A stretch of DNA of 46,665 nucleotides from Actinomycetota bacterium. GTDB lineage: Bacteria > Actinomycetota > Actinomycetes > JAKEEW01. Position 1 is the first letter of the stretch. Every line of letters starts with the position of its first letter. The stretch is from positions 1 to 46,665 of the forward strand of contig JBKOZJ010000042.1 in the NCBI GenBank assembly GCA_046725875.1. Reading direction: 5' to 3'. The position numbers and the translations under genes are program-made. This document shows, piece after piece, positions 4,040-44,687 of this stretch. The notes beneath the pieces were generated by a model. It was not told where the DNA came from. It made no database searches and saw only the letters and a program-made list of their open reading frames with translations.

Positions 4040-5620
4040 CTACCCGATCAGCTGGGCCTGGTTGGTCAGCACATTAAGCACGACCTCCGGCAAGAGCGAC
4101 AAAACCACCGCCAAACCGAGTGTCAAGCCGATCGCCGCGCCCAGCTCCGGTGGGATCTTGTACGACGGCGGAGGCGCGGCCGGATCCGGCGCGACGAAGA
4201 GCAGGCCGGCCCAGACTACGTAGTAGTAGAGAGCGATGACGGTGTTTACGGCCATCACGACCGCGAGCCAGCCGACGCCGCCGGCGACGGCCGCCTTGAA
4301 GACCACCACTTTGGCAAACAGCCCAACCAGTCCCGGCGGAATCCCGGCCAGGCAGGCCAGGAAGAAGGCAAGGATGAGCGCGCTCACCGGCTCGGTGCGG
4401 ACCAGCCCGCGGTAGTCCTCGAGTCTGTTCGCCGGCCGGTATCGGCCGACCGCGACCACGACGGCGAAGGCGCCGAGGTTCATCACGGCGTAGACGAGCA
4501 GGTAGGCGACGGACGCGGAGAGCGCGTCGCCGATCGATGAGCCGGTCCCGCCCGGTTTCGTAGAGACCGCGACTCCGAGCGGCACCAGCACATAGCCCGA
4601 TTGCGCGATCGACGACCACGCGAGCAGCCGGACGGCATTCCGCTCGCGCAGGGCGACGAGGTTGCCGACCGTCATCGTGAGTGCGGCGAGGACCGCCACC
4701 ACCGGTCCCCAGATGTTGGAGTACGGAGCAAAGCCGAGGCTGACCACGAGGATGAAGCCGATGAACCCGGCCGCCTTTGACACGACCGACAGATAGGCCG
4801 CGACCGGGACGGGCGCACCCACGTAGGTGTCGGGCAGCCATCCGTGGAACGGCACCGCCGCAACCTTGAAGGCCAGCCCAACGAGCACGAGCACCATACC
4901 GACGGCGAGGACTCTGGTGTCGACCGGGACAGCCTCCCCCGCCGCTCCGGCCAACGCACTACTAACACCGTGGCCGGAGGCGTCGCCCGTGACCTTCGTC
5001 TCGTCTAGTGCCGCCGCGATCCGGGACAGATGGACCGAGCCGGTCATGCCGTAGATCAGCGAGATCCCGAAGAGCATCACCGCGATCGAGACGACCGAGA
5101 CCAGGAAGAACTTGACGGCCGCCTCGCCGCCGCGCCCGTGGTAACGGCGCATGCCGACCAGCGCGAACGCCGGCAGCGAGACCAGCTCGAGCGCTATCAC
5201 GAGGGTCATCAGGTCGCGGGCGGCCGCGATCGACACCGCGCCCGCCGCCGAGACGAGCAGCAGGAACCAGAACTCCCCGGCGGGCAGCCGCTGGTCGGCA
5301 ACCGTGTTGGCCGACATCAAAACCGCCACGAGGGCACCCGCCAGGGCGAGCAGCTGGAAGACGAGGGTCAGGTCGTTGACGACGTAAGAGCACTGGCGTA
5401 CCGCCTCGCCGCTGGGCAGGCAGAACGTCGCCCGCGGCGAGCCCTGCAGTGGCAGCAGCGATCCGAGCGCCCCGAGCAGGCCGGCGACCGGGAGCCAGGC
5501 GAGCATGTCCTTCCGCGCGGGCGGCACGAACAGGTCGAGTACGAGCACCGCGAGGGCGGCCAGGACCACGATGAGCGGCGGTGCGATGGCCGCGTAATCG
5601 ATGGACTGGACGAGCGACAT
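4040..5620 (-). CDS. nuoN: Complex I subunit N, second cluster
   Basis: Start MSLVQSID (ATG 5620 overlaps the nuoM stop). ALELVSLP, FKVAAVPFHGWLPDTY, RLLAWSSIAQSGY, LAGIPP. Confidence 0.93.
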   Translation of the reverse strand: MSLVQSIDYAAIAPPLIVVLAALAVLVLDLFVPPARKDMLAWLPVAGLLGALGSLLPLQGSPRATFCLPSGEAVRQCSYVVNDLTLVFQLLALAGALVAVLMSANTVADQRLPAGEFWFLLLVSAAGAVSIAAARDLMTLVIALELVSLPAFALVGMRRYHGRGGEAAVKFFLVSVVSIAVMLFGISLIYGMTGSVHLSRIAAALDETKVTGDASGHGVSSALAGAAGEAVPVDTRVLAVGMVLVLVGLAFKVAAVPFHGWLPDTYVGAPVPVAAYLSVVSKAAGFIGFILVVSLGFAPYSNIWGPVVAVLAALTMTVGNLVALRERNAVRLLAWSSIAQSGYVLVPLGVAVSTKPGGTGSSIGDALSASVAYLLVYAVMNLGAFAVVVAVGRYRPANRLEDYRGLVRTEPVSALILAFFLACLAGIPPGLVGLFAKVVVFKAAVAGGVGWLAVVMAVNTVIALYYYVVWAGLLFVAPDPAAPPPSYKIPPELGAAIGLTLGLAVVLSLLPEVVLNVLTNQAQLIG

Positions 5621-7251
5621 CAGCCGGGCACCCCCAACAGTGCCCGGACGGCCGGGTCGCTGACGCCGAGCAGGACCTTCGGCCACAGCCCGGCGAGCAA
5701 GATGAGGACGATCAGCGGCGCCCAGGCCGCCCACTCGATGCTGCGCACGTCCACGTGCGGCGTGAACGAGGGGGCCGTCGAACCGCCGGACGCGCCGCCG
5801 GCCCCGGCCGGCCCGACGCCGGCAGCCCACTGGGGGCCGCTCACCCCCATCGCCACCCGGCGCAGCATCACGAGCAGGTACACGGCGGTCAGCAGCGTGC
5901 CCAGGCCAGCGACCGACATGAGCACCACAAAATAGGGCCGCTGCAGGGCCTCGGCCGGGTCGAACGCGCCGAGCAAGGCAAGGACCTCACCCCAGAACCC
6001 GGCGAGCCCGGGCAGGCCGAGCGACGCGACCGCCGCGAAGGCGAGCACTCCGCCCAGCCGGGGCAGTCGCTCGTACAAACCCCCGCCAAGCTCGGCGAAT
6101 GCGGAGGTGTGGTGCCGGTCCTTGATGGCACCAGCGAGAAAGAACAGCAGTCCAGTGATGAGTCCGTGCCCCACATTGGCGAAGAGCGCGCCGTTGATGC
6201 CGACGGCGGTAAGAGTGGCGATGCCGAGAAGGACGAACCCCATGTGCCCGACCGACGAGTACGCGATAAGCCGCTTCAGGTCACGTTGAGCGAGACAGGC
6301 CAGCGCACCGTACACAATGCCGACCACGGCAAGCGCCCCGATGTAGGGGGCGAACTCCCGGGCTCCTTCGGGCAGGATCGGCAGCGCGATGCGCACCAGG
6401 CCGTAGGTTCCGATCTTCAGCAAGACACCGGCTAGCAGCACCGAGCCGACGGTCGGTGCAGCCGTGTGGGCATCCGGCAGCCAGGTATGCAGCGGCCACA
6501 TCGGTGCCTTGACGCCGAAGCCAAGCAAGAGCGCCAGAAACGCGATGACCTGCACTCCGTGCGACATGCCCGCGCCGTCGGCGGCGGCCAGCTCGACCAT
6601 GTCGAGCGTGCCGGCCTTGGTGTAGATGAGCAGGAGCCCGAGCAGCATGAGTGCCGACCCGAGCAAGGTGTAGAGGATGAACTTGAACGCCGCCAGTGCC
6701 CGCCCGTCCGAGCCCCAGTAGGCGATGAGGAAGTACATCGGGACCAAGACGGTTTCGAAGAAAACGAAGAAGAGGATGAGGTCGAGCGCGGCAAAGGTGC
6801 CAAGCATCCCGGTCTCGAGCAGTAGCAACAGGCCCACGAAGCCGCGGTCGCTGCGGCTGATCGGCTCGGAACCGCTGCCACTTGGGTCCGCCGGTCGCGG
6901 GTTGAGGGGAACAGCCACGGGGGGATCCGGGGCGGCGGAGGGCATGACCCGGGTGGCGTAGAGCGCACAGAGGAAGGTCAGCAGCGCGGTCAGCACGAAC
7001 AGGGGCAGCGAGATGCCGTCGACTCCGAAGTGGAAGCGCAGGTCTAGCGCGCTTGCCCAGCCGACGTTTGTCTCCGCCTGGATATCGCTTGTCTTGTCGT
7101 AGTCGAAGTCGGCGGTTACGGCCAGCGTGGCGAGTAGTGCCAGACCGGTCGTGACGACGCCGATCGTTCGCGCCCAATCGACCGGTGCGAGCAGGACGGC
7201 GGCGAGCCCAGCCAACGGGACGAGGACGGCCAAGACCAGCAGTGCGCTCAT
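5620..7251 (-). CDS. nuoM: Complex I subunit M, second cluster
   Basis: Start MSALLV (ATGA overlap with nuoL). [51 protein letters not shown]. Confidence 0.94.
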   Translation of the reverse strand: MSALLVLAVLVPLAGLAAVLLAPVDWARTIGVVTTGLALLATLAVTADFDYDKTSDIQAETNVGWASALDLRFHFGVDGISLPLFVLTALLTFLCALYATRVMPSAAPDPPVAVPLNPRPADPSGSGSEPISRSDRGFVGLLLLLETGMLGTFAALDLILFFVFFETVLVPMYFLIAYWGSDGRALAAFKFILYTLLGSALMLLGLLLIYTKAGTLDMVELAAADGAGMSHGVQVIAFLALLLGFGVKAPMWPLHTWLPDAHTAAPTVGSVLLAGVLLKIGTYGLVRIALPILPEGAREFAPYIGALAVVGIVYGALACLAQRDLKRLIAYSSVGHMGFVLLGIATLTAVGINGALFANVGHGLITGLLFFLAGAIKDRHHTSAFAELGGGLYERLPRLGGVLAFAAVASLGLPGLAGFWGEVLALLGAFDPAEALQRPYFVVLMSVAGLGTLLTAVYLLVMLRRVAMGVSGPQWAAGVGPAGAGGASGGSTAPSFTPHVDVRSIEWAAWAPLIVLILLAGLWPKVLLGVSDPAVRALLGVPG

Positions 7252-9371
7252 CCGATCGCCACCGCCACCGAGAATGCGATCGCGACCGCGCCGATCAGCA
7301 CCCCCGCCAGGTAGGTCTGCACGTTTCCGTTCTGGAGAGCACGAAGCACGCCACCGAGCCACCGGGCGCCGATGCCCGATCCGTACACGTATCCATCCAC
7401 GACGTTGTCGTCGTTGAAGATGACCGCCCGGGCGACTGCATAGGTTGGCCGCACCAGCGCCCGGTCGTACGCCTCGTCGAGCCCGAACCCACGCTCGGCC
7501 CAGGGCCTGGCCTGGGCGAGCAGCGCGTCCGCCGGATCCGCGGCCGGGTCGCGCCGCCAGACCGTGTAGGTCAGGGCGAGGCCGAGCGCGGCCGCGGCAA
7601 GGGCAAGCACGGTCGTAACCAGGACCGGGGTAAATACCGCTTCTGCCTCGGGGAAGACGACGAGGTTGGCCAGTCCCGCCGTTGCGGTGTCGCCGAGCCA
7701 GCGCGGGATGCCGTTGTTGTACAGCCCGAAGAAGCCAAGCACCGCCGATGGCACCGCCAACGCGATCAGCACCCACGTCATGGCCGGCGGCGCATCGTGG
7801 GCTGCCTCGGCTCCAGCTTCTGCCGCTATGCCCGCCTCGGCATCCGGGCGATCCTCAGCCGGGACTATGGCCTCTGGGCGTTCCTCGTGCGGAACCGGTT
7901 GTACGGCCTCCCGCGGGCCAACCCACTCGAGCTCACCGACCGGCACGGTAGCCGGCGCGAGGAAGGCCATCAACCACAGCCGCATGCAGTAGGCGGCCGT
8001 CACGGCCACCGTCAGCACGGCGACGACGAGCAATATCCAGGTAGCCCAACGAGATGGTAGAGCGAGCATCACGGTTGGGGATGGGCCAACCGCGAACGAT
8101 GCCTCGTCGCTGGACGTCGCCGCGTGCTCGGTGGCGCTGAGGATCGACTCCTTACTGAAGAATCCTGACATCGGCGGCAGGCCAGCGAGCGCCGCCAGCC
8201 CGATTGTCATCGTCCAGAACGTAACCGGCATCGGCCGGCGCAGTCCGCCCATCTCCCGCAGCGAGTTGGTGCCGACGGCGTGGATGACCGCGCCGGCGCA
8301 GAGGAAAAGTAGTGCCTTGAAGGCGCCGTGCGTGAGGAGGTGGAACATGCTCGCCTCGGGCGCGCCGGCGGCGAGTCCGCCGCCCATATAGGCGAGCTGC
8401 GAGATGGTCGAGTAGGCGAGGACCCGCTTGATGTCATCCTGGGCGAGCGCGGCGACGGCCGAGCCGAGCATGGTGATAGCCGCGATAAGCGCGAGGACGG
8501 TCAGCGTCGTCTGTGCGGCGGCGAAGGCTGGATAGAGGCGCGCAATGAAATACATACCGGCCGCGACCATCGTCGCTGCGTGGATGAGCGCACTGATCGG
8601 CGTCGGGCCGGCCATCGCGTCCGGAAGCCAGGTATGCAGCGGGAATTGGGCGGACTTTCCAACGACCCCGCAAAGCAGCAGCAGCGTGGCGAGCGTAACG
8701 TGCTCGACCTTGCCGTCGGCGACCGCGGTGAGGACATCGCCGATTTGGAACGACCCGGCCCCGACCCCGAGCACGAAGATGCCGAACAGGAACGGCACGT
8801 CGCCGAGCTTGGTCATGACGAACGCCTTGACCGCGGCGGACTGCGCCCAGTCGCGCTCCCAGTAGTGGCCGATCAGAAAGTAGGAACAGATGCCCATGAC
8901 CTCCCAGCCGACCAGCAGCACGATCAGGTCGGCGGAGTAAACGACAAGCAGCATCGCCGCGCTGAACAACGACACGAACGCCGTGTACGACGAGTACCTC
9001 GACGCGCGGGGGGACACCCCAGGCGCTTCCCCCGCAATGTGCTCGGCGTCGTGCTTCATGTACTCGGTCGAGTAGATCTGCACGGCCAGCGCGACCAGGC
9101 AGACCATGATGGCGACAGTGGTCGACAGCCCGTCCAGCCGGACGCCGATGACCACCGGTATCGCCCCCGTGGGAGTGAGCTGCGTGCTGTGCTCAACTGG
9201 CGGACCGCCGTGCGGAGTGCCGGCCGCAACTACGATGGCGGCGACGGTGGCCACGGCGATGCCGCCGATACCGATCGGTCCGACCAACCGGGGCGCGCGG
9301 CGCCCGTACAACAAACCAACGACGGCCGCCAAGAACGGCGCCGCCGGTACCACCCAGGCCAGCTCGGTCAC
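7248..9371 (-). CDS. nuoL: Complex I subunit L, second cluster
   Basis: [75 protein letters not shown]-terminal LQNGNVQTY. Confidence 0.95.
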
Positions 9372-9802
9372 GGCGACCGCCCCGCGACCCGCGGCTCCAC
9401 CGGTGGGGCACCGGCGGCCGGATCGACCGCTTCCGCGGCCCCGCCGGCGTGCTCAGCCTCGGCCGCCGCGTCGGCGTCGACCAGAGCGTCGTACTGTCGC
9501 TCGCCGAGATCCCGCAGTGTGTCGATGTCGGCCGTTTGCCGCTCGCGAAAGACCAGCAGGACGATCGCGAGCCCAAGGCCGATCTCCGCCGCGGCGATCG
9601 TGATTACGTAGAGCGTGAAGACCTGACCGGCGTGCAGCTCGTCCCGCAACCACACGTCGAACGCGACCAGGTTCAGGTTGACCGCGTTGAGCATGAGCTC
9701 GACCGAGAGCAGCACGAGGATCGCGTTGCGCCGGGCGAGCACCCCGTAGACACCGATGCTGAACAGCAGCGCCGACACGATCAGCGGATACAGCAGGTGC
9801 AT
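9368..9802 (-). CDS. nuoK: Complex I subunit K, second cluster, with about 40-aa C-terminal tail
   Basis: Start MHLLYP at 9802. [33 protein letters not shown]. Confidence 0.93.
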
Positions 9803-9804
9803 CC

Positions 9805-10323
9805 TCAGCTCGTCCCCCTGTCCGGTCGGGTACGGCGGGACAGCACAATCGCGCCGACCAGCGCGGCCAGCAGCAGAACGGAGAGGATCTCGAACGGCAG
9901 CACCCAGTAGCGAAAGATGGTCTCGCCGATTCCGCGCGAGGCCCCCGCAACGCCGCCGTGCACATCGATGTAGGCCCGGCGGAACGCCTCCACGATGACC
10001 GTGACGAGGGTGCCGGCGGTCGCGCCGGCCACCGCGGCCGCGGCCCAGCGGTTGCCGCCGGTCAGCTCCGGCGAGAAACCGATCGGTGCTCGGGTCAGCA
10101 TGAAACCGAACAGCGCCAGCACGACGACCGCACCGACATAGATGAACACCTGCACCCAGGCCACGAATTCGGCGGTCAGCAGGAGATAGCAGCCCGCCAG
10201 CGCGCCGAGCGTGACGACCAGCCAGAGCGCGGAGTGGACGAGATTCGACGAGCCCACCACCAGCAGCGCCGCGGCCACGGCCGCGGCACCAAGGAGCGCG
10301 AACAGTACTTCGACCCCGGTCAA
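9805..10323 (-). CDS. nuoJ: Complex I subunit J, second cluster
   Basis: [48 protein letters not shown] start overlaps the nuoI stop. Confidence 0.93.
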
Positions 10324-11012
10324 CCGGTCCCCCCGGCACCGGTCTCGGGGTCCGACTGCTGGTCGTCCGGTCCGCCGTGCGCCGGTCGACCGCCGGCGGG
10401 ACCCTCGCCCGCCGGTCGACGGCGGTCCGGACCTTCGGCCGCCGGTCGACGGCGGGCAGGACCCTCAGCCGCTTTGCCGCCGGCCGCGCCGGCCCGCTCG
10501 ATCGCGGCCCTGGCCAGGGCGACCTCCTTCGGCTCCTCGGCGGCCGGATCGGGTGCTGGGGGCGGCGGGACGGTCCACATCCAATCCCGCAGGCGATCCT
10601 TCTCGTGGGTGAGGTCGCGGATGTCGAGCTCGGAGTACTCGAACTCGGGCGACCAGAACAGCGCGTCGAACGGGCACACCTCGATGCAGATCCCGCAGTA
10701 CATGCAGAGCGAGAAGTCGATGGCGAAGCGGTCGAGCACGTTCCGGGTTCGGTCCCGGGCGCCAGGCTCGGTCGCCGGAATGACCTCCTTGTGCGAATCG
10801 ATGTAGATACACCAGTCAGGGCACTCCCGGGCGCAGAGCATGCAGACCGTGCAGTTCTCCTCGAACAGCGCGATGACGCCGCGACTGCGCGGTGGGAGTT
10901 GCGGCAGGACATCGGGATACTGCTGGGTCACCGACCGGCGGGTCAGATGCTGCCAGGTGACCGCGAGGCCCTGCGCGAGTCCCTTCCCAGGAACATCCAC
11001 GGGAGCAATCAT
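10320..11012 (-). CDS. nuoI: Complex I subunit I (2x[4Fe-4S]), second cluster
   Basis: [12 protein letters not shown] and [18 protein letters not shown]. Start MIAPVDV chosen after GGAG. Confidence 0.92.
10381..10472. repeat. Three imperfect 30-bp tandem repeats in the nuoI2 3' end
   Basis: GCCGGTCGAC...GGACC(C/T)TC..CC units start at 10381, 10411 and 10441. They encode [10 protein letters not shown] / [10 protein letters not shown] / [10 protein letters not shown]. Confidence 0.9.
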
Positions 11013-11121
11013 GGCACTCCACGAAATCCTCCGTCGCGCCGCTCGCCCAAACGTTCCACCGGACCCCGCCCGGTGGCTGATCTTCGTCGCCGCTCCGGAC
11101 TTCAACGGCCGGCGGGCCGGC

Positions 11122-12725: not shown

Positions 12726-13315
12726 CGGCGGTCCTCGCCCGCGTACCGATCGGCGAGTGACTCGGCGGCGATCTTCTCCTGGAGCTTGAGAATCCCCTGC
12801 AGCAGCGCCTCCGGCCGCGGTGGGCACCCGGGGACGTAGACGTCGACCGGCACGACGTGGTCGACGCCTTTGGTCACGCAGTACGAATCCCAGTAGGGAC
12901 CGCCGGAGTTCGAGCACGCGCCGAACGAGATCACGTATTTCGGCTCCGGCATCTGCTCGTAGAGCCGCTTCACCGCCGGCGCCATCTTGTCGGTCACGGT
13001 GCCCGACACGATCATGAGATCCGCCTGGCGCGGCCCGGGCGCGAAGGGAATCACGCCGAGCCGGATGAAGTCGTGCCGCGACATCGAGGACGCGATGAAC
13101 TCGATCGCGCAGCAGGCGAGGCCGAAGTTGAAGACCCACAGCGAGTAGCGGCGGCCCCAGTTCAGCACGAGCCGGATCGGCTCGGGTGAGAGCCGCTGCA
13201 ATGGACCGAGCGGCCGCAACCGGCTGCGGGCCGGCACCTCTGGCCGTCCGCCCGATGCCGGCTGCTGCGGATCGGCGATTCGAGCGGGTGGTCCCGACGG
13301 GCCGGTCACGTCCAT
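12722..13315 (-). CDS. nuoB: Complex I subunit B (N2 cluster), second cluster
   Basis: [47 protein letters not shown]. Confidence 0.95.
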
Positions 13316-13677
13316 GTCAGCACGCCCTTCTTCCACGCGTACAACAATCCGACCGCGAGGAAGCCGAGGAAGACGAACATCTCAACGAGGGTCGCCACAC
13401 CGAAGCCGGGCAGCGAGAACACCGTCGCCCAGGGGAAGAGGAAAACTGCGTCGATGGCGAAGACAACATACAGATAGGCGTAAACGTAGTAGCGGATGTG
13501 TGTATGAGCCCAGCCCTCACCGACCGGGTCGACGCCGCACTCGTACGTGATCAGCTTCTCCCGGGTGGGTCGGTCCGGGCGCAACAGCCGGTTGGCCGTC
13601 ATCGCGACCACGAAGAACGCGGCACCAATCAGCACGATCAGGCCGACGACCGCATAGCCACCGAAGTACCCGGTCAC
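13306..13677 (-). CDS. nuoA: Complex I subunit A, second cluster
   Basis: [45 protein letters not shown] start uncertain (13677 or 13683). TAGACT lies just upstream. Confidence 0.92.
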
Positions 13678-13901
13678 AATCACAGAGTCTAAGACCGCGG
13701 CACCGCGCTCTCCTGCCCGATACCGGGGTTCCGGCGCCCGAAGGCCCGCCGCCTTCGCACCGTGAAGACTGATCGTCAAGACATCGGGTTATCCCCACGG
13801 CCGAGACGCCGGTAAACAGCCTTGTCGATCATCTGCTGGCGCTGGAATCGTTGAGCCAGACCAGCGCGACGATGGTTGGCGAAACATAGCGATTGGTACG
13901 C

Positions 13902-15194
13902 ATGACGATCACTACCGAGGCGACGAAGGCACCGGCTGACCGGAGCCGGCGCCGGCACACATTTTTCTCGGCTCCATTCCACCCCCGGACCCGGCGGGAA
14001 CTGCTGCATCTACTGCTCGACCTCCCGATCGGGATCGCGGGCTGCTGCTTCGTGGCGGTCTTCCTGTGCGGCGGTCTGCTGCTTGCCGTCCTCGGGTTGC
14101 CGGTCGTAGCGGCGATGCTCGTCAGCAGCCGTGCGGTCGGGACGATGGAGCGGGCGCGGGCCCGGGCCCTCCTCGGCGAGCACGTCGCCGCACCCCGACC
14201 CCTAACCTCCTCCGGAGGCGGCTTCTGGTCCTGGCTGAAGGCGGCACTCCTGGACGCGCCCGGCTGGCGGGCTGCGCTCTATTTGGTGCTCCTCGGCGGC
14301 TGGTCGCTTGTCGTCGGCGCCGTGCTCGCGCCGACGTTGACGGCGGCCGGCATGCTCGTCGGCTATCCGATCTGGCACAACTTCGGGCAGCCGGGCGGGG
14401 GAATCAACCTCGGTGACCACGTGGTGGAGGCTGCGTGGGAGATCGCGCTGTCGGTCGGCGTTGGCCTGACGATCCTCCTGCTCGTGCCATGGCTCGTGCG
14501 CGGCCTGACCCAGGTCGACCGACTACTTGTCCGCGGGCTGCTCGGACCGACCACCCTGTCCAGTCGCGTGCGCAGCCTCGAGGTTGCCCGCGGCGGCGCG
14601 ATCGACCAGGCCGCAGCGGACCTGCGCCGCATCGAGCGAGACCTGCACGACGGCACCCAGGCGCGGCTCGTCGCGCTTGCCATGGAACTTGGTATGGCCC
14701 GGGAGAAGCTCGCGGAGAACCCCGAGCACGCCCAGGAGCTCATCGCGAAGGCGCACACCGATGCCAAGGAGGCGGTGGCCGAGCTGCGGGACATCGCACG
14801 CGGGATCCATCCGGTCGAGCTGACCGGGCGCGGGCTCGATGCGGCGCTGTCCCCACTAGCGGCGCGGTGCACGGTCCCGATGACGGTGCGGGTCGACCTA
14901 CCAGGACGGCCAGCCCCCATCGTCGAGGCGGCCGCCTATTTCTGCGTCAGCGAGCTTCTGACGAACATCTCCAAGCACAGCCGAGCGAGCCAGGCGGGGG
15001 TGTACGTACACAAGATCGGAGACCGGCTGCGCATCGAAGTTCGGGACGACGGTATCGGCGGCGCGGACCCAAGCGGGGGAACCGGCCTGCGCGGGCTCGC
15101 CGATCGAGTGCGAAGTCTTGACGGAACCGTGCAGGTGGTGAGCCCCATATCGGGGACCACGACGGTCGTGGTGGAGCTGCCGTGGACTCCGTAG
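13902..15194 (+). CDS. Membrane sensor histidine kinase 1 (HisKA_3 type, AbrC-like system)
   Basis: N-terminal TM segments, H-box IERDLHDGTQARL, N-box ELLTNISKHS, G-box DDGIGGA..GTGLRGL. Confidence 0.93.
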   Translation: MTITTEATKAPADRSRRRHTFFSAPFHPRTRRELLHLLLDLPIGIAGCCFVAVFLCGGLLLAVLGLPVVAAMLVSSRAVGTMERARARALLGEHVAAPRPLTSSGGGFWSWLKAALLDAPGWRAALYLVLLGGWSLVVGAVLAPTLTAAGMLVGYPIWHNFGQPGGGINLGDHVVEAAWEIALSVGVGLTILLLVPWLVRGLTQVDRLLVRGLLGPTTLSSRVRSLEVARGGAIDQAAADLRRIERDLHDGTQARLVALAMELGMAREKLAENPEHAQELIAKAHTDAKEAVAELRDIARGIHPVELTGRGLDAALSPLAARCTVPMTVRVDLPGRPAPIVEAAAYFCVSELLTNISKHSRASQAGVYVHKIGDRLRIEVRDDGIGGADPSGGTGLRGLADRVRSLDGTVQVVSPISGTTTVVVELPWTP

Positions 15195-16516
15195 CCGGCA
15201 GCCAGGAGAACTCAGCAGCCGCCGCGGAGAAGGCGAGCGGCCGCGACGAAACCCGCGAACCGGAGAGGGGGCTGGAACCGCCGCCGTCCCAGCTCCCCGG
15301 CGAAAAGACCTCGTCGGAGCGTGGCTCTCGGTCTGGGCCGGACAGCTTCCCGGCGGAGTCGTCCGCTCGTTCTGCCCTCGGCGCCTTCGCGGATGCCGTA
15401 CGTGATCCCGCCGTCTACCGCGCCGCGCTCTGCCTCTTGCTGCTCCTCCCGCTCGGGATCGCCGGCGCGGTCGTGATCGTGACCATGCTGGTGGTCGGTG
15501 CCGTGCTGAGCATCACGCTCGTCGGCATCCCGGTGATCGCGGTGACACTAATCTTGGCTCGGTGGTTCGCGAGGGGCTACCGCTGGCTCGCGCGCTGGGG
15601 CTTCGGCGCGAAGATCGCGGACCCGGCGCCCACGGTTCATGGTCCTGGCTTCCTCGGCTGGGTCCAGGGCACCCTGCTGGACGCCGTGGGCTGGCGGGGC
15701 GCGCTCTATGCGGTCCTGATGCTTCCCTTGGGCATCGCCTTCGGCATCATAACGATCACGCTGGTGGTCACGTCCGTGCTTACACCGGTCTTCTTCGTGG
15801 CACCGTGGGTGATCCGCGGGCTCGCCGCCGCACACCGCTGGCTCGCCGAGCGGCTGCTCGCGCCGGTCACACTGTCCGAGCGGGTACGGCGCCTACAGCA
15901 GCGCCGCGACCAGGTCGTTGAATCGGCCGCCGCCGAGCGCCGCAGGATCGAGCGCGATCTGCACGACGGCGCGCAGGCACGGCTGGTCGCGCTTGCCATG
16001 GACCTCGGCATGGCCCGGGAGAAACTCAGCGGCGCCGGGGACCCGGAACGCGCCGCAGCGCTCGTAGCCAGCGCGCACGACGAGGTCAAGCGCGCGTTGT
16101 CCGAGCTGCGCGACCTGACCAGAGGGATCCACCCGGCGATCCTCACCGACCGCGGTCTGGATGCCGCACTTTCCGCGGTGGCCGCGCGATGCACCGTTCC
16201 GGTGGCGCTAAGCGTCGAGATCGCCGATCGGCCGCCGCCGGCAGCGGAGCAGATCGCCTATTTCTGTGTCTCGGAGCTTCTGGTCAACGTATCCCGGCAC
16301 AGCCGGGCGACCGCTGCTGCGGTCAGCATTCGACAGACCCGCGACCGCCTCCTGATCGATGTGCGAGACGACGGCGTCGGCGGCGCGGACCCGACCAGTG
16401 GGACCGGCCTGCGCGGCCTCGCCGAACGGCTGTCGTCGGCCGGCGGTACCTTCACCGTGGATAGCCCGCCCGGCGGGCCGACCGTGGTCACCGTGGAGCT
16501 GCCATGCGCATCGTGA
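15182..16516 (+). CDS. Membrane sensor histidine kinase 2 (paralogue of kinase 1)
   Basis: IERDLHDGAQARL, ELLVNVSRHS, DDGVGGA..GTGLRGL. GTG start after GGAG overlaps kinase 1. Confidence 0.93.
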   Translation: MDSVAGSQENSAAAAEKASGRDETREPERGLEPPPSQLPGEKTSSERGSRSGPDSFPAESSARSALGAFADAVRDPAVYRAALCLLLLLPLGIAGAVVIVTMLVVGAVLSITLVGIPVIAVTLILARWFARGYRWLARWGFGAKIADPAPTVHGPGFLGWVQGTLLDAVGWRGALYAVLMLPLGIAFGIITITLVVTSVLTPVFFVAPWVIRGLAAAHRWLAERLLAPVTLSERVRRLQQRRDQVVESAAAERRRIERDLHDGAQARLVALAMDLGMAREKLSGAGDPERAAALVASAHDEVKRALSELRDLTRGIHPAILTDRGLDAALSAVAARCTVPVALSVEIADRPPPAAEQIAYFCVSELLVNVSRHSRATAAAVSIRQTRDRLLIDVRDDGVGGADPTSGTGLRGLAERLSSAGGTFTVDSPPGGPTVVTVELPCAS

Positions 16517-17151
16517 TCGCCGAGGATTCGGTGGTGCTCAGAGATGGGCTGGGCCGGCTATTGACCGACGCCGGCCACAATGTCGTAGCGGCCGTCCCGG
16601 ACGCCGGCGCGCTGCTCGACGCCGTCGTCGAGCACCAGCCGGACATCGCCGTGGTCGACGTACGGATGCCGCCCACGCACACCGATGAGGGCCTGCGGGC
16701 TGCCGTACAGGTAAGGCGCGGGCACCCCGAGGTTGCGGTCCTGGTCTTCTCGCAATATGTCGAGGAGCGGTACGCGGCCGAGCTCCTCGCCGGGTCGACC
16801 AAGAAGGTCGGCTACCTGCTCAAGGACCGGGTCGCGGATGTGCGCGACTTCGTCGAGGCGGTGGAGCGGGTAGCGAGCGGCGGCACGGCGCTCGACCCTG
16901 AGGTCGTGTCGCAGATCTTCAGCCGGTCCAGGCGGCGGGAGACGCTCGACGCCCTCACCCCGAGGGAGCGGGAGGTCCTGGCCGCCATGGCGGAGGGGGC
17001 CTCCAACGCCGCGATCGCAGGCAAGCTCGTCGTCTCCGAGGGCGCGGTGGAGAAGCACGTGTCCAACATCTTCGCCAAGCTCGGCCTGGCCCCGAGCGAG
17101 GGCGAACATCGCCGGGTCCTCGCCGTACTCACCTACCTTGGTGTGACGTGA
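16504..17151 (+). CDS. NarL/LuxR-family response regulator
   Basis: RIVIAED, VVDVRMPP (phospho-Asp), GYLLK, LTPREREVL..MAEG.SN..IA..L.VSEGAVEKHVSNIFAKL. Confidence 0.96.
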   Translation: MRIVIAEDSVVLRDGLGRLLTDAGHNVVAAVPDAGALLDAVVEHQPDIAVVDVRMPPTHTDEGLRAAVQVRRGHPEVAVLVFSQYVEERYAAELLAGSTKKVGYLLKDRVADVRDFVEAVERVASGGTALDPEVVSQIFSRSRRRETLDALTPREREVLAAMAEGASNAAIAGKLVVSEGAVEKHVSNIFAKLGLAPSEGEHRRVLAVLTYLGVT

Positions 17152-17226
17152 CGGTCTCCGCGATGAACCGGTTCGCCTAGGATTCCTTGCCCGACTGAAC
17201 GGAAGATCGCGCCATCATCCGGTAGA

Positions 17227-17257
17227 ACCGACCGTTTGGTCGGTCCCGACGTAGGAT
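17227..17257 (+). promoter_or_regulatory. Putative korAB promoter with an overlapping palindromic operator
   Basis: ACCGACC-GTTT-GGTCGGT (17227-17244), 7 nt upstream of TAGGAT (17252-17257). Confidence 0.55.
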
Positions 17258-17328
17258 TGATGCCACGGCCGCGACGGTGGCCACTGGGCGCTAGGGCCTA
17301 TGGTGGGGCACCGAGGAGGCGCATCCAG

Positions 17329-19206
17329 GTGGGGAAGACAGCGGGTCAGAAGTCAGTCAAGCAGCTCGATCGAGTGATCATCCGCTTTGCCGGAGACTCC
17401 GGCGACGGGATGCAGCTGACCGGAGACCGGTTCACGTCCGAGACGGCCACGTTCGGCAACGACCTCGCCACGCTGCCCAACTTCCCGGCCGAGATCCGGG
17501 CGCCGGCGGGCACGTTGCCCGGAGTGTCGAGCTTCCAGCTGCATTTCGCCGATCACGACATCATGACGCCCGGCGATGCCCCCAACGTCCTCGTGGCGAT
17601 GAACCCGGCGGCCCTCAAGGCGAATATCGGCGATCTTCCCCGCGGCGCCGACGTCATCGTCAACACCGACGAGTTCACCGCGCGGGCCTTGTCCAAGGTG
17701 GGCTACCCGACGAACCCGCTCGAGGACGGCTCGCTCGACGGCTACGCCGTGCACCCCGTCGGGCTGACCTCCATGACGGTCGAGGCGCTCAAGAGCTTCG
17801 ACATTTCGAAGAAGGACGCCGAGCGGGCGAAGAACATGTTCGCGCTGGGGCTTCTGTCCTGGCTCTACCACCGCCCGACCGACGGCACGATCGCGTTCCT
17901 GGAGCGGAAGTTCGCGAGCAAGCCGGAAATCATGAAGGCGAACGTCGCCGCCTTCCGGGCCGGCTACAACTTCGGCGAGACCACCGAGGACTTCGCGGTC
18001 TCGTACGAAGTCAAGCCCGCTCCGATGCCGGCCGGGCTTTACCGCAACATTTCCGGCAACCTCGCGCTCGCGTACGGGCTCATCGCTGCGTCAAGGCGGT
18101 CCGGGCTGCCGCTGTTTCTCGGGTCGTACCCCATCACCCCGGCCAGCGACGTGCTGCACGAGCTTGCCAAGCACAAGAGGTTCGGCGTACGCACCTTCCA
18201 GGCCGAGGACGAGATCGCCGGCGTTGGAGCGGCGCTGGGCGCGTCGTTCGGGGGCGGCATCGGAGTGACGACGACCAGTGGCCCCGGTCTTGCGCTCAAG
18301 GCCGAGACGATCGGTCTAGCAGTGTCCCTGGAGCTGCCGCTGGTTGTGTGCGACATCCAACGCTCCGGCCCGTCGACCGGCATGCCGACCAAGACCGAGC
18401 AGGCCGACCTGCTCCAGGCGATGTACGGACGGAACGGTGAGGCCCCGGTTCCGATCATCGCGCCGCGATCACCGGCCGACTGCTTCGACAGTGCGATCGA
18501 GGCGGTGCGGATCGCCACGAAATACCGGACGCCGGTCCTGCTTCTCTCGGACGGCTATCTGGCCAACGGCTCCGAGCCTTGGCTCATCCCGTCCGTCGAG
18601 AACCTGCCCGACCTGCGGGTCGAGTTCGCCACTGAGCCGAACCACGAACGGGCGGATGGCACCGCGGACTTCTGGCCGTATCGCCGCGACCCGAAGACCC
18701 TGGCCCGGCCGTGGGCGCTGCCCGGCACTCCCGGTCTCGAACACCGGATCGGCGGCCTGGAAAAGGCCGACGGCCACGGCAACATCTCCTACGACCCGGC
18801 CAACCACGACCTTATGGTCCGGACCCGGCAGGCGAAGGTCGACGGCATTGCCAACGACATCCCGCCGCTAGAGGTGGACGACCCCTCCGCTGACGCGCGC
18901 GTGCTTGTGCTCGGCTGGGGCTCCACTTATGGGCCGATCGGGGCTGCCTGCCGGCGGGTGCGGACCGGCGGCCTCCGGGTCGCGCATGCCCACCTGCGCC
19001 ACCTCAACCCGTTCCCGGCCAATACCGGTGAGGTCGTACGGAAGTACGACAAGGTCGTGATTCCGGAGATGAATCTCGGGCAGCTGGCCTTGCTAGTTCG
19101 CGCGCGGTATCTCGTCGATGCGATCGGCTACAACCGGGTGACCGGGCTGCCGTTCAAGGCCGAAGAGCTGGCCGGAGTGATCGAGGACGTGATCCACAGT
19201 GCCTGA
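17329..19206 (+). CDS. korA: 2-oxoacid:ferredoxin oxidoreductase, fused gamma-alpha subunit
   Basis: IRFAGDSGDGMQLTG, PAEIRAPAG, YPITPAS, QAEDEIA, TTTSGPG, QRSGPSTGMPT. RBS AGGAGG 9 nt before GTG 17329. Confidence 0.94.
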   Translation: MGKTAGQKSVKQLDRVIIRFAGDSGDGMQLTGDRFTSETATFGNDLATLPNFPAEIRAPAGTLPGVSSFQLHFADHDIMTPGDAPNVLVAMNPAALKANIGDLPRGADVIVNTDEFTARALSKVGYPTNPLEDGSLDGYAVHPVGLTSMTVEALKSFDISKKDAERAKNMFALGLLSWLYHRPTDGTIAFLERKFASKPEIMKANVAAFRAGYNFGETTEDFAVSYEVKPAPMPAGLYRNISGNLALAYGLIAASRRSGLPLFLGSYPITPASDVLHELAKHKRFGVRTFQAEDEIAGVGAALGASFGGGIGVTTTSGPGLALKAETIGLAVSLELPLVVCDIQRSGPSTGMPTKTEQADLLQAMYGRNGEAPVPIIAPRSPADCFDSAIEAVRIATKYRTPVLLLSDGYLANGSEPWLIPSVENLPDLRVEFATEPNHERADGTADFWPYRRDPKTLARPWALPGTPGLEHRIGGLEKADGHGNISYDPANHDLMVRTRQAKVDGIANDIPPLEVDDPSADARVLVLGWGSTYGPIGAACRRVRTGGLRVAHAHLRHLNPFPANTGEVVRKYDKVVIPEMNLGQLALLVRARYLVDAIGYNRVTGLPFKAEELAGVIEDVIHSA

Positions 19207-20311
19207 GAGTATGTCTGGCAATGCCTCGGCGATTCCCGCGCCCCGCGAGATGACCGGGATGGAGTCGCTCACCAAGGGCCTCGAGCTGGTACCGAAGACC
19301 GACGATAAGCAGTCGGCTAAGGACTTCAAGAGCGACCAGGAAGTTCGCTGGTGCCCCGGCTGCGGCGACTATGCGATCCTCGCGACAATGCAGGGCTTCC
19401 TGCCCGAGCTTGGCTTGCGCCGCGAGAACATCGTGTTCGTATCCGGAATCGGCTGCTCATCCCGGTTCCCGTACTACATGAACACCTACGGTCTGCACTC
19501 CATCCACGGGCGGGCTCCGGCGATCGCGACCGGTCTTGCCGCCTCCCGGCCGGACCTGTCGGTTTGGGTGATCACCGGGGACGGCGACGGCCTTTCCATC
19601 GGCGGGAACCACCTCATCCACGCGCTGCGCCGCAACGTCAACCTCAAGATCCTGCTCTTCAACAACCGGATCTATGGGTTGACGAAGGGCCAGTACTCAC
19701 CGACGTCCGAACTCGGCAAGATCACAAAGTCCACGCCGATGGGGTCGCTCGACCACCCGTTCAACCCCATCTCGCTGGCGCTCGGCGCCGAGGCGACCTT
19801 CGTCGCCCGCAGCATCGATTCCGACCGCAAACACCTCTCGTCGGTCCTGCGGGCCGCCGCGGCACACCGCGGATCGGCGTTCGTCGAGATCTACCAAAAC
19901 TGCAACATCTACAACGACAACGCCTTCGAGGTCCTCAAGGACAGCTCGATCAGAGACGCCCATCTCATCCGATTGGAGCACGGAGAACCGATTCGGTACG
20001 GCGCCTCCGGCGAGCTGGGCATCCGCCGCAACCCGCAGACCGGCGAGCTCGAGACCGTTGCCGTGGCGAACGCGGCCGAGGACAGCATCCTTGTACACGA
20101 CGCACACTCGCCGGACCCGTCGACGGCGTTTGGCCTCTCGCGTCTTGCCGACGACACCCTGGCGCGGACCGCGATCGGGGTCTTCCGGTCGGTAATCCGG
20201 CGCACCTACGACGATCTGATGAGTTCGCAGGTCGAACGGGCCGTCGAGAAGCAGGGTGCGGGCGACCTTGGAGCGCTCCTGACCTCGGGCGACACCTGGA
20301 CCGTCAACTAA
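19199..20311 (+). CDS. korB: 2-oxoacid:ferredoxin oxidoreductase beta subunit
   Basis: WCPGCGD, SGIGCSS, HSIHGRA, TPP motif GDGD...NNRIYGLTKGQ. Start could be a downstream ATG. Confidence 0.94.
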   Translation: MPESMSGNASAIPAPREMTGMESLTKGLELVPKTDDKQSAKDFKSDQEVRWCPGCGDYAILATMQGFLPELGLRRENIVFVSGIGCSSRFPYYMNTYGLHSIHGRAPAIATGLAASRPDLSVWVITGDGDGLSIGGNHLIHALRRNVNLKILLFNNRIYGLTKGQYSPTSELGKITKSTPMGSLDHPFNPISLALGAEATFVARSIDSDRKHLSSVLRAAAAHRGSAFVEIYQNCNIYNDNAFEVLKDSSIRDAHLIRLEHGEPIRYGASGELGIRRNPQTGELETVAVANAAEDSILVHDAHSPDPSTAFGLSRLADDTLARTAIGVFRSVIRRTYDDLMSSQVERAVEKQGAGDLGALLTSGDTWTVN

Positions 20312-32325: not shown

Positions 32326-32326
32326 C

Positions 32327-34303: not shown

Positions 34304-34311
34304 CTGGTCTC

Positions 34312-34611: not shown

Positions 34612-34672
34612 GAGGCACCCCTCGAACTTTTCGCCCGCTTCGGCACGCCGCCCGCCCTGGTGGTTGCTGTGA

Positions 34673-42036: not shown

Positions 42037-42111
42037 CAACACCCACCTGTCATCGACTCATGAGAATCGGAACCACGCCCGCCACGCGTACCGAGGGGTG
42101 TCGGGATTGAC

Positions 42112-44683: not shown

Positions 44684-44687
44684 GCGC

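What the first reader, a model, noticed from the sequence alone, without database searches (positions are those of the whole stretch)
4040..20311. Second complex I lacking the NADH module, next to korAB: candidate 2-oxoacid/ferredoxin:menaquinone proton-pumping chain
Seen: a 10-gene nuo operon (A,B,C,H,I,J,K,L,M,N) with intact Fe-S cysteines in B and I, no nuoE/F/G, divergent from a two-component system followed by korAB, with a complete NADH-type operon about 15 kb away. Known: complex I-like enzymes without NuoEF take electrons from ferredoxin or flavodoxin (cyanobacterial NDH-1, headless Fpo, Campylobacter complex I fed by 2-oxoglutarate:acceptor oxidoreductase). As I recall, S. coelicolor has the same gene order, so the arrangement is not new, but I know of no established electron donor for the actinobacterial enzyme. 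Inference: KorAB-derived low-potential electrons enter the menaquinone pool through this complex, bypassing NADH. No ferredoxin gene is in the window.
Basis: partly seen in the sequence, partly recalled or inferred. Interest (0 to 1): 0.75.

Follow-up and report, generated by a model that had tools for sequence, protein, structure and literature searches.

The report
Actinomycete second complex I beside korAB
This is the conserved second complex-I gene set of actinomycetes, which lacks the NADH-binding module and sits back to back with the 2-oxoglutarate:ferredoxin oxidoreductase genes; what feeds it electrons is still untested.

Summary
A translationally coupled 10-gene operon, nuoA2-B2-C2-H2-I2-J2-K2-L2-M2-N2 (4040-13683, minus strand), lacks nuoD/E/F/G. 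It diverges from two histidine kinases, a LuxR regulator and korAB. A full nuoA-N operon lies 15 kb away.

An orphan nuoD2 on another contig completes an 11-subunit enzyme. It co-occurs with nuo2: 54 of 55 NuoH2-positive genomes.

This is the known Streptomyces nuo2 arrangement, and its function is unknown.

New points:
- Every NuoD2 examined carries Trp where canonical complex I has the quinone-binding Tyr.
- korAB adjacency is conserved across most families of the class (63 of 67 named loci).
- About 30 of 85 NuoD2-bearing genomes keep only B2-C2-I2 beside korAB, under purifying selection, with no membrane arm.
- In other classes of the phylum, nuo2 is an 11-gene operon just downstream of nuo1, with no korAB nearby.
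- KorAB occurs in 48 of 66 genomes without NuoD2.
- nuo2 was never found without NuoF.

A KorAB/ferredoxin-fed menaquinone reductase remains the best reading (about 0.4). It is not shown. The scan reached the same conclusions on four other genomes.

The parts
4040..5620 (-). nuoN2 (526 aa), antiporter-like subunit
   Evidence: Pfam Proton_antipo_M 9e-58; TIGR01770 1e-94. TM5 Glu, TM7 Lys and TM12 Lys are kept; TM8 Lys is Val.
5620..7251 (-). nuoM2 (543 aa), antiporter-like subunit
   Evidence: TIGR01972 1e-158. TM5 Glu, TM7 Lys, TM8 Lys and TM12 Glu are kept.
7248..9371 (-). nuoL2 (707 aa), antiporter-like subunit
   Evidence: NF005141 2e-155; Proton_antipo_N and Proton_antipo_M. TM5 Glu and the TM7, TM8 and TM12 Lys are kept.
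9368..9808 (-). nuoK2 (146 aa, with a non-conserved C-terminal tail of about 45 aa)
   Evidence: Oxidored_q2 3e-27; NF004322 2e-34.
9805..10323 (-). nuoJ2 (172 aa)
   Evidence: NF005168 2e-32.
10320..11012 (-). nuoI2 (230 aa): 2x[4Fe-4S] subunit (N6a/N6b) with a low-complexity C-terminal tail
   Evidence: TIGR01971 3e-27. Both CxxCxxCxxxCP motifs are invariant in 35 of 35 aligned sequences. The tail beyond about residue 170 is not conserved.
11122..12075 (-). nuoH2 (317 aa), membrane subunit at the quinone channel
   Evidence: NADHdh 9e-100. It is 41% identical to NuoH1. Orthologues of 61-100% identity occur in 55 of 151 class genomes.
12072..12725 (-). nuoC2 (217 aa), NuoC only and not fused to NuoD. 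It has a conserved C-terminal tail motif: WPGAKEPGE...RRRxxPPGVPDPxxWGPR.
   Evidence: Complex1_30kDa 7e-37. The tail motif is conserved in full-type and most reduced-type orthologues and is absent from NuoC1.
12722..13315 (-). nuoB2 (197 aa), carrier of cluster N2
   Evidence: TIGR01957 1e-65. Four Cys ligands are kept, as is the [21 protein letters not shown] loop.
13306..13683 (-). nuoA2. The start is uncertain: 13677, 13683 or 13779.
   Evidence: Oxidored_q4 1e-33; candidate starts listed.
13686..13691 (-). -10-like hexamer TAGACT just upstream of nuoA2
   Evidence: The motif [CT]TAGACTC lies upstream of nuoA2 in 56 of 77 named loci and in the window. It is a consensus match only.
13893..15194 (+). 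Sensor histidine kinase 1, at the AbrC1/AbrC2 position
   Evidence: Sensor, HisKA_3 and HATPase_c domains. Same position as S. coelicolor SCO4598/4597 (PMC9739823 passages).
15182..16516 (+). Sensor histidine kinase 2
   Evidence: Sensor, HisKA_3 and HATPase_c domains.
16504..17151 (+). LuxR/NarL-type response regulator, at the AbrC3 position
   Evidence: Response_reg and GerE domains.
17236..19206 (+). korA, the fused gamma/alpha subunit of a two-subunit 2-oxoacid:ferredoxin oxidoreductase
   Evidence: TIGR03710 2e-197; POR, POR_N and PFOR_II domains.
19199..20311 (+). korB, the TPP and [4Fe-4S] beta subunit
   Evidence: TPP_enzyme_C 6e-30. Matches PDB chains 6n2n_B and 5b46_B at 3e-58 and 5e-57, with the WCPGCG motif.
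3021..3875 (-). M48 (HtpX-like) peptidase, the conserved downstream neighbour of nuoN2
   Evidence: Peptidase_M48 2e-34. It follows nuoN2 in 62 of 67 named loci. It lies next to korA where nuo2 is deleted.
28991..45056 (-). Complete nuo1 operon (nuoA-N, including D, E, F and G)
   Evidence: Pfam domains for all subunits except NuoK1, whose listed frame gave no hit. Paralogues are 30-59% identical to nuo2.

Best explanation
The window carries the actinomycete nuo2 system. Its ten genes encode the full membrane arm (A2, H2, J2-N2) plus three Q-module subunits (B2, C2, I2). Together with the unlinked NuoD2 they build an 11-subunit complex-I-type enzyme that has no NADH module of its own.

The most likely mechanism runs as follows. 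Low-potential electrons from KorAB enter at the NuoI2 face. They arrive either through the genome's 7Fe FdxA-type ferredoxin or by direct docking, possibly helped by the conserved NuoC2 tail. They pass N6a/N6b to N2 in NuoB2 and reduce menaquinone at an altered site in NuoD2, which has Trp instead of the canonical Tyr. L2, M2 and N2 pump protons.

Shown:
- the gene content
- intact Fe-S ligands
- mostly intact antiporter residues
- co-occurrence of NuoD2 with nuo2
- conserved korAB synteny within the class

Inferred:
- assembly of NuoD2 with nuo2
- independence from NuoEFG
- the donor
- the acceptor
- proton pumping
For: 1. Eleven core subunits are present: ten in the operon and an orphan NuoD2.

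2. NuoD2 tracks nuo2. In 151 class genomes, 54 of 55 NuoH2-positive genomes have NuoD2. NuoI2 and NuoD2 overlap in 82, with 4 NuoI2-only and 3 NuoD2-only.

3. In other classes D2 sits inside an 11-gene A2B2C2D2H2-N2 operon in 13 of 15 fetched loci. The set is therefore an old, self-contained NUO11-type unit.

4. The N2, N6a and N6b ligands are kept, as are H38 of NuoD and the TM5 Glu, TM7 Lys and TM12 Lys/Glu of L2, M2 and N2.

5. korAB is divergent from nuo2 in 63 of 67 named loci and in most anonymised families.

6. After loss of the membrane arm, B2-C2-I2 stay within 1.5 kb of korA in 19 genomes and within 3.5 kb in 4 more; 2 are not adjacent. Their dN/dS is 0.04-0.32.

7. NuoC2 carries a lineage-specific conserved C-terminal tail. 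In Thermus the NuoC C-terminal loop contacts NuoG (passage of PMC3144371).

8. A Rex-like operator is found only on the nuo1 side.

9. No FpoF/FrhB or flavodoxin was found in this genome. A 7Fe ferredoxin is present.

10. The physiological acceptor of actinobacterial KOR is reported as unidentified (PMC2773412 passages). Eleven-subunit enzymes fed by PFOR/ferredoxin are proposed elsewhere (PMC11238625 passages).
Against: 1. NuoD2 has Trp at the position of Thermus Nqo4 Tyr87 in 52 of 52 class orthologues and in 14 of 15 from other classes. A passage of PMC4758237 states that this same change, made by mutagenesis, severely lowers decylubiquinone activity.

2. KorA is present in 48 of 66 genomes without NuoD2. 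Six of 85 NuoD2 genomes lack KorA: G011, G018, G075, G041, G092 and G145.

3. In other classes nuo2 follows nuo1 directly in 10 of 13 operons, and 0 of 15 loci have korAB within 8 kb. The korAB adjacency is therefore class-specific.

4. Adjacency was lost in three families of the class: f20, f6 and f46.

5. No genome has nuo2 without NuoF: 55 of 55 NuoH2-positive genomes carry it.

6. Forms that keep only B2-C2-I2, with degenerate membrane-contact segments, show that whatever links the Q-module to korAB does not need proton pumping.

7. KorB shows no extension specific to genomes with the Q-module.

8. NuoN2 has Val at the TM8 Lys position.
Confidence: 0.4

Rival explanations
1. nuo2 plus NuoD2 is an alternative core (P- and Q-modules) that borrows NuoE, F and G from nuo1. 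The cell then makes two NADH:menaquinone oxidoreductase isoforms. The second has a Trp-type quinone site with different kinetics or inhibitor sensitivity.
For: - All 55 NuoH2-positive and all 85 NuoD2-positive genomes of 151 also have NuoF.
- In other classes nuo2 lies directly downstream of nuo1 on the same strand in 10 of 13 operons. G025 of this class has the same layout.
- The Tyr-to-Trp change is described as giving inhibitor resistance (PMC4758237 passage).
Against: - NuoF is in 147 of 151 genomes, so its co-presence carries little information.
- The NuoC2 C-terminus, at the NuoG-contacting position in Thermus, is replaced by a different conserved motif.
- Reduced B2-C2-I2 sets stay beside korAB rather than beside nuoEFG.
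- No Rex-like operator lies near nuo2.
Confidence: 0.25
2. The conserved working unit is the Q-module paralogue set (B2, C2, D2, I2), acting as KorAB's electron outlet. Its acceptor at the Trp-type NuoD2 pocket need not be membrane menaquinone. The membrane arm in this window is an add-on that couples the reaction to the proton gradient in some lineages and is dispensable in others.
For: - 31 of 85 NuoD2-positive genomes have no NuoH2. One of them (G008) is probably an assembly gap.
- In 23 genomes that lack NuoH2 (21 of them among these 31; G015 and G042 have no NuoD2 hit), NuoI2 lies within 3.5 kb of korA.
- Reduced-type NuoB2 and NuoI2 have lost the N-terminal and loop segments that face the membrane arm, but keep all Fe-S cysteines.
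- dN/dS is 0.04-0.32.
- G049 is an intermediate with NuoH2 fragments.
- G015, G017 and G030 have a single NuoH, that of nuo1.
Against: - The window itself has a full membrane arm with mostly intact pumping residues.
- No soluble acceptor is suggested by any result.
- Reduced forms could be slowly decaying remnants, despite the low dN/dS.
- The NuoD2 tree cannot tell one origin of the reduced form from several.
Confidence: 0.2
3. The korAB adjacency is inherited gene order without functional coupling. nuo2 takes electrons from another donor, such as a different ferredoxin-reducing enzyme.
For: - The whole nuo1...korBA-nuo2-M48 block is syntenic across the class.
- korAB stays in place, next to M48, when nuo2 is deleted.
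- nuo2 exists without KorA in G011, G018 and G075.
- There is no korAB near nuo2 in other classes.
Against: - Three separate deletions (A2, H2, J2-N2) removed the membrane genes but left B2, C2 and I2 beside korA in many families.
- No FpoF or flavodoxin was found in this 89%-complete genome.
Confidence: 0.15

Closest known systems
Streptomyces nuo2 set (S. coelicolor SCO4599-SCO4608, with a separately encoded nuoD2)
   Same: - Same gene order, A2-B2-C2-H2...N2, and no N-module genes.
- nuoD2 is unlinked.
- The AbrC-type two-kinase system and the 2-oxoglutarate ferredoxin oxidoreductase genes lie divergently.
Sources: passages of PMC3765725, PMC8388888, PMC9739823 and PMC8981147; 51 of 63 named loci share the layout that includes the two-component system.
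   Different: The window comes from a 3.8-Mb draft genome whose nearest named relatives are Spirillospora and Actinomadura, at 60-70% NuoC2 identity. Those relatives lack the two-component system between korA and nuoA2. Some papers list the middle gene as absent or unnamed; here it is clearly NuoC.
Eleven-subunit complex-I-like enzymes without an N-module (cyanobacterial NDH-1; Desulfitobacterium hafniense nuoABCDHIJKLMN)
   Same: - The same 11 core subunits, with no NuoEFG in the operon.
- Ferredoxin is shown or proposed as the donor.
- PFOR is proposed as the source in D. hafniense (PMC11238625 passages).
- The best PDB match of NuoD2 is cyanobacterial NdhH (6hum_H, 2e-83).
   Different: - Those organisms lack a second, NADH-type complex I. 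Here nuo1 is always present.
- NuoD2 has Trp at the Tyr87 position, whereas NdhH has Tyr (alignment).
- No NdhS/V/O-type ferredoxin-docking subunits were looked for or seen.
- D2 is unlinked in this class.
Campylobacter jejuni complex I, fed by flavodoxin from 2-oxoglutarate:acceptor oxidoreductase
   Same: The concept is the same: a 2-oxoacid oxidoreductase delivers low-potential electrons to a complex I without NuoE/F. It is named as flavodoxin-dependent in a PMC4453560 passage.
   Different: - C. jejuni keeps a NuoG-like 12th subunit (PMC3144371 passage).
- It has replacement genes in the E/F position (recalled, not checked here).
- The window has neither of these, and no Flavodoxin_1 was found in the genome.
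Archaeal Fpo (F420H2 dehydrogenase, and its FpoF-less ferredoxin-using form)
   Same: The 11 homologous core subunits. The NCBIfam Fpo models match weakly.
   Different: - No FrhB/FpoF homologue is in the genome.
- Scores against the Fpo models are far below their cut-offs.
- The acceptor there is methanophenazine.
Mycobacterial KorAB (Rv2454c-Rv2455c)
   Same: A two-subunit, aerotolerant 2-oxoglutarate:ferredoxin oxidoreductase family that is widespread in actinobacteria. Its physiological acceptor is unidentified (PMC2773412 passages).
   Different: Orthology to the M. tuberculosis genes was not tested here. From recall, mycobacteria have korAB but no nuo2. In the anonymised sample, 48 genomes have KorA but no NuoD2.

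Membership tests
Actinomycete nuo2 system | Operon nuoA2-B2-C2-H2-I2-J2-K2-L2-M2-N2 without D, E, F or G | tested here: met
   The same order is seen in the fetched loci whose contigs span the cluster.
Actinomycete nuo2 system | An unlinked nuoD2 paralogue in the same genome | tested here: met
   G000:C25:8075-9226 is 37% identical to NuoD1. It lies in the conserved folP / bPH_2 / P450 neighbourhood seen in 20 relatives.
Actinomycete nuo2 system | Divergent from korAB, with or without the AbrC-type two-component system, and with a separate full nuo1 operon | tested here: met
   passages of PMC9739823 and PMC8981147.
N-module-less 11-subunit complex-I-like enzymes (NUO11) | All 11 core subunits, with the Fe-S ligands of N2, N6a and N6b | tested here: met
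N-module-less 11-subunit complex-I-like enzymes (NUO11) | The organism has no NuoEFG available to the enzyme, following the definition in the PMC4758237 Methods passage | tested here: not met
   nuoE, F and G are present in nuo1 in the same window, and NuoF is in all 55 NuoH2-positive genomes.
N-module-less 11-subunit complex-I-like enzymes (NUO11) | Canonical quinone-site pair in NuoD (Thermus Nqo4 His38 and Tyr87) | tested here: not met
   His38 is kept but Tyr87 is Trp. The window's NuoD1 has Tyr.
N-module-less 11-subunit complex-I-like enzymes (NUO11) | Ferredoxin- or flavodoxin-dependent quinone reduction with proton translocation | not testable with these tools
   This needs membrane biochemistry.
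Campylobacter-type complex I | A NuoG-like subunit plus replacement genes at the E/F position, with flavodoxin as donor | tested here: not met
   No such genes lie in the cluster. No Flavodoxin_1 was found in the genome, which is 89% complete.
Fpo F420H2 dehydrogenase | An FpoF (FrhB-family) input subunit | tested here: not met
   No PF04432 match in the genome.
Two-subunit 2-oxoacid:ferredoxin oxidoreductase (KorAB/OFOR) | A fused gamma/alpha subunit, and a beta subunit with TPP and one [4Fe-4S] site | tested here: met
   TIGR03710 scores 657 bits against a cut-off of 483. KorB aligns to 6n2n_B and 5b46_B with the Cys motif.
Two-subunit 2-oxoacid:ferredoxin oxidoreductase (KorAB/OFOR) | Specificity for 2-oxoglutarate | not tested
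   It is inferred from the family name and from the S. coelicolor annotation in PMC8981147. No substrate-site analysis was done.

The most novel reading that the evidence does not exclude
KorAB docks directly on the alternative Q-module (NuoB2, C2, D2, I2), using the conserved NuoC2 tail and the NuoI2 face where NuoG would sit. The result would be a complex I whose head is a 2-oxoglutarate dehydrogenase instead of the NADH module: a 2-oxoglutarate:menaquinone oxidoreductase that pumps protons. In lineages that lost the membrane arm, the same KorAB/Q-module assembly would persist as a non-pumping enzyme with a Trp-type acceptor pocket.
Probability: 0.12. Interest if true: 0.85.

Novelty: new member of a known kind. 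Interest (0 to 1): 0.5.

Why it matters
Two open questions meet here. One is what donates electrons to the widespread complex-I-like enzymes without an NADH module. The other is what re-oxidises the aerotolerant 2-oxoglutarate:ferredoxin oxidoreductase of actinobacteria. Its acceptor was reported as unidentified in 2009 (PMC2773412 passage).

- the class-wide back-to-back arrangement of korAB with nuo2
- the persistence of B2-C2-I2 beside korAB after the membrane arm is lost
- the invariant Trp in NuoD2

If a KorAB-to-nuo2 route exists, the TCA cycle of many actinomycetes would feed the quinone pool at 2-oxoglutarate without passing through NADH, and would conserve more energy. That bears on energy budgets in antibiotic producers and in abundant freshwater lineages.

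The gene arrangement itself is already described for Streptomyces, so the window adds a member, not a new kind.

Tried and rejected
1. Complex prediction with NuoD2, NuoI2(1-170) and KorB as partner, each given as an alignment. The score was 0.00 and the tool gave no verdict. It counts neither for nor against binding.

2. NuoD2 tree, to count the origins of the reduced B2-C2-I2 form. All 25 reduced-type rows fall in one clade (SH-aLRT 96), but on long branches. An AU test does not reject holding family f19's full and reduced types together: p = 0.62, and the constrained tree scored 12 log units better than the quick free search. The tests for f25 and f30 did not finish. The number of origins is unresolved. 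G049, whose NuoD2 sits among full types and which keeps NuoH2 fragments, argues for at least one independent reduction.

3. F420 or flavodoxin as donors. No FrhB/FpoF and no Flavodoxin_1 were found in G000. The genome is 89% complete, so absence is not proven.

4. A KorB or KorA feature specific to genomes with the Q-module. None was seen. KorB aligns over its full length in 20 genomes that had no NuoD2 match at E<=1e-90; one of them, G042, still carries B2-C2-I2 beside korA.

5. A Rex operator near nuo2 or korAB. None within 3 mismatches. The single match lies at 46583-46600, and 23 of 100 shuffles give at least one match.

6. Sigma-70 consensus scan of 13500-17400: 0 promoter-like sites.

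7. Literature. Searches found no paper in the held library that assigns a donor to actinomycete nuo2 or links it to korAB. Subscription journals are largely not held, and no supplements were read.

8. The search for homologous proteins with NuoD2 listed only close Actinomadura/Spirillospora-type relatives. It gave no outgroup information.

Full report
**What is in the window**

Six-frame ORFs with Pfam and NCBIfam scans show ten genes on the minus strand between 4040 and 13683. They are nuoN2, M2, L2, K2, J2, I2, H2, C2, B2 and A2.
- Their starts and stops overlap by 1-4 nt at 8 of the 9 junctions. The exception is a 110-nt gap between nuoH2 and nuoI2.
- None of the products carries a NuoD, E, F or G domain.
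- The gene between B2 and H2 is a plain NuoC of 217 aa (Complex1_30kDa, 7e-37).
- NuoB2 keeps the four cysteines of cluster N2, and NuoI2 keeps both CxxCxxCxxxCP motifs.

On the plus strand lie two HisKA_3 kinases, a LuxR-type regulator, korA (TIGR03710, 657 bits) and korB. KorB matches the beta chains of solved two-subunit 2-oxoacid:ferredoxin oxidoreductases.

A complete nuoA-N operon lies at 28991-45056. It is flanked by a polyprenyl synthase gene and a gene for an FAD-binding (FAD_binding_3) protein. The nuo1 and nuo2 paralogues are only 30-59% identical, so this is an old divergence, not a recent duplication. The only Fer4 domains in the window are NuoI1 and NuoI2.

**The missing NuoD**

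NuoD forms the quinone pocket together with NuoB and NuoH, so a set truly lacking D could not reduce quinone.

A family search of the whole draft genome (3.76 Mb, 197 contigs, 89% complete) finds a second NuoD of 383 aa on contig C25. It stands alone among a P450, a bPH_2 protein, folP and ftsH. This neighbourhood is conserved around NuoD2 in 20 relatives.

NuoD2 tracks nuo2 in a sample of 151 genomes of the same class (148 of them of high quality):
- NuoD2 occurs in 85, NuoI2 in 86 and NuoH2 in 55.
- 54 of the 55 NuoH2-positive genomes have NuoD2.
- NuoI2 and NuoD2 overlap in 82 genomes, with 4 NuoI2-only and 3 NuoD2-only.

In other classes of the phylum, 13 of 15 fetched loci carry an 11-gene operon, A2-B2-C2-D2-H2-I2-J2-K2-L2-M2-N2, with D2 in its normal place. 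NuoD2 is thus very probably the eleventh subunit, and its separation is a class-specific rearrangement.

**This is the known Streptomyces arrangement**
- Passages of PMC3765725 and PMC8388888 describe nuoA2, B2, D2 and H2-N2 in streptomycetes. nuoD2 is apart, there is no N-module, and a conserved antisense RNA lies over nuoM2-nuoL2.
- Passages of PMC9739823 place the AbrC1/AbrC2/AbrC3 system (SCO4598-4596) divergent from SCO4599-4608.
- Passages of PMC8981147 name SCO4594/4595 as the 2-oxoglutarate ferredoxin oxidoreductase.
- Among 80 named loci fetched with a NuoC2 alignment, 63 of the 67 with at least 8 kb upstream carry korA. In 51 of those, two-component genes lie in between.
- The nearest named relatives (Spirillospora, Actinomadura, Nonomuraea) have korBA directly against nuoA2. 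The window shares the Streptomyces-type insertion.

The scan had reached the same reading on four other genomes. I saw those notes only after finding NuoD2 and the reduced clusters myself.

**A modified quinone site**

Aligned to Thermus Nqo4, NuoD2 keeps His38 but has Trp at Tyr87 (RHDWLSAF). The window's NuoD1 has Tyr there (RADYLMPF).
- The Trp is present in all 52 class orthologues examined, and 51 of them keep His38.
- It is also present in 14 of 15 NuoD2-like proteins of other classes.
- A passage of PMC4758237 says the same change, made by mutagenesis, severely lowers decylubiquinone activity and gives inhibitor resistance. It reports the change in NuoD of piericidin-producing Streptomyces. 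Given the present result, that report may concern the NuoD2 paralogue. I could not check which protein they used.

The Trp is a lineage hallmark. It means that ordinary quinone chemistry cannot be assumed.

The pumping side looks largely intact. L2, M2 and N2 keep the TM5 Glu, the TM7 Lys and the TM12 Lys/Glu/Lys. NuoN2 alone has Val at the TM8 Lys position.

**The korAB link within the class**

Within the class the back-to-back arrangement is widely conserved. It is lost in three anonymised families:
- f20, where nuo2 follows nuo1 directly
- f6, where KorA is often missing
- f46

More telling, many genomes keep NuoD2 but have no NuoH2: 31 of 85, one of which is probably an assembly gap.
- Fetched loci show only nuoB2-nuoC2-nuoI2 beside korA, usually followed by the same M48 peptidase gene that follows nuoN2 in full clusters.
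- NuoI2 lies within 1.5 kb of korA in 19 such genomes and within 3.5 kb in 4 more. It is not adjacent in 2. Three cannot be assessed, and 2 have no KorA.
- In these reduced forms, NuoB2 has lost its N-terminal segment and the SRHDFIRLG...PRQAD loop. NuoI2 has lost its N-terminal helix. All Fe-S cysteines remain.
- dN/dS between five pairs of related genomes is 0.04-0.32.
- G015, G017 and G030 have only one NuoH, that of nuo1.
- G049 is caught in between, with a partial A2, two NuoH2 fragments and no J2-N2.

The Q-module paralogues are therefore kept under selection next to korAB without their own membrane arm.

- KorA is nearly ubiquitous. It occurs in 128 of 151 genomes, including 48 of the 66 without NuoD2. 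Six NuoD2 genomes lack it. G041, one of the six, is an unpublished genome.
- When nuo2 is absent, korA sits directly against M48. KorAB therefore works without nuo2.
- Outside the class, 10 of 13 nuo2 operons lie immediately downstream of nuo1 on the same strand, and none of 15 loci has korAB within 8 kb.
- Every NuoH2- or NuoD2-positive genome also has NuoF. Sharing of NuoEFG cannot be excluded, although NuoF is in 147 of 151 genomes and so says little.

**Small points in favour of independence from NuoEFG**
- NuoC2 has a conserved, lineage-specific C-terminal tail (WPGAKEPGE...RRRxxPPGVPDPxxWGPR). It is present in full types and most reduced types and absent from NuoC1. In Thermus, the NuoC C-terminal loop touches NuoG (passage of PMC3144371).
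- The only Rex-like operator in the window lies on the nuo1 side. This is weak: 23 of 100 shuffles match.

**Donor candidates in this genome**
- A 7Fe FdxA-type ferredoxin lies on contig C118, and a small Fer4_15 (single-cluster-type) ferredoxin on C49.
- No FrhB/FpoF and no flavodoxin were found.
- A co-folding job for NuoD2, NuoI2 and KorB gave no verdict and is not used as evidence.

**Verdict**

The window holds an orthologue of the known actinomycete nuo2 system, completed by an unlinked NuoD2.

Three alternatives are live:
- an NADH isoform that shares NuoEFG (0.25)
- a Q-module-centred KorAB outlet, for which the membrane arm is optional (0.20)
- mere inherited adjacency (0.15)

Counts that include unpublished genomes (G012, G020, G029, G034 and G041; also G159, G175, G203, G222, G240, G270 and G294) do not change any conclusion if those genomes are removed.

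Noticed in passing
window 3021-3875 (-): An M48 (HtpX-like) peptidase gene follows nuoN2 in 62 of 67 named loci. It follows nuoI2 in reduced clusters, and it lies directly against korA where nuo2 is deleted. It is a stable flank of the locus.
   Followed up: partly
window 46583-46600 (+): A Rex-operator-like site (1 mismatch to the recalled consensus) lies upstream of the FAD-binding reductase gene on the nuo1 side. There is none within 3 mismatches near nuo2 or korAB. The chance expectation is 0.27 matches per window.
   Followed up: partly
window 13686-13692 (-): The motif [CT]TAGACTC, with a -10-like TAGACT, lies a few bases before the GTG codons at 13683 and 13677. It recurs upstream of nuoA2 in 56 of 77 named loci, which suggests a conserved promoter and perhaps a leaderless nuoA2 transcript.
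   Followed up: partly
window 4040-5620 (-), NuoN2: NuoN2 has Val where NuoN1, L1, L2, M1 and M2 have the TM8 Lys (DIKR motif). I did not check whether this holds in NuoN2 orthologues.
   Followed up: no
window 10320-10500, 9368-9500 and 12072-12150 (-): NuoI2, NuoK2 and NuoC2 end in Pro/Ala/Gly/Arg-rich low-complexity tails. Only the proximal part of the NuoC2 tail is conserved among relatives.
   Followed up: partly
L162 (G049:C1:444432-464431), about 8100-11700: An intermediate state of cluster decay: partial nuoA2, nuoB2 at 86% identity, nuoC2, two short NuoH2 fragments, nuoI2, then M48. korAB is 36 kb away.
   Followed up: partly
PMC4758237, passage at character 44537: The Tyr87-to-Trp change reported for NuoD of piericidin-producing Streptomyces, and read there as self-resistance, equals the invariant Trp of NuoD2 found here. 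The paper may have sampled the paralogue. I saw neither its tables nor its accessions.
   Followed up: no
protein P0095: A NuoD2-type protein 84% identical to the window's is labelled Mycobacterium tuberculosis in a public source. It sits among Actinomadura and Spirillospora hits, so it looks like a mislabelled or contaminated record.
   Followed up: no
window 27965-28957 (-) and 45173-46537 (-): A polyprenyl synthase gene and a gene for an FAD-binding (FAD_binding_3) protein flank nuo1; read as geranylgeranyl-reductase-like (not tested), they would put quinone side-chain genes beside the NADH-type operon.
   Followed up: no
L209 (G160:C1:464488-481582): A differently ordered nuo cluster (B, C, D, I, A, H, J, K, M, L, N) in another class. 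Its NuoD keeps Tyr at the Tyr87 position and is only 41% identical to NuoD2. It may be an outgroup to the Trp-type lineage.
   Followed up: no
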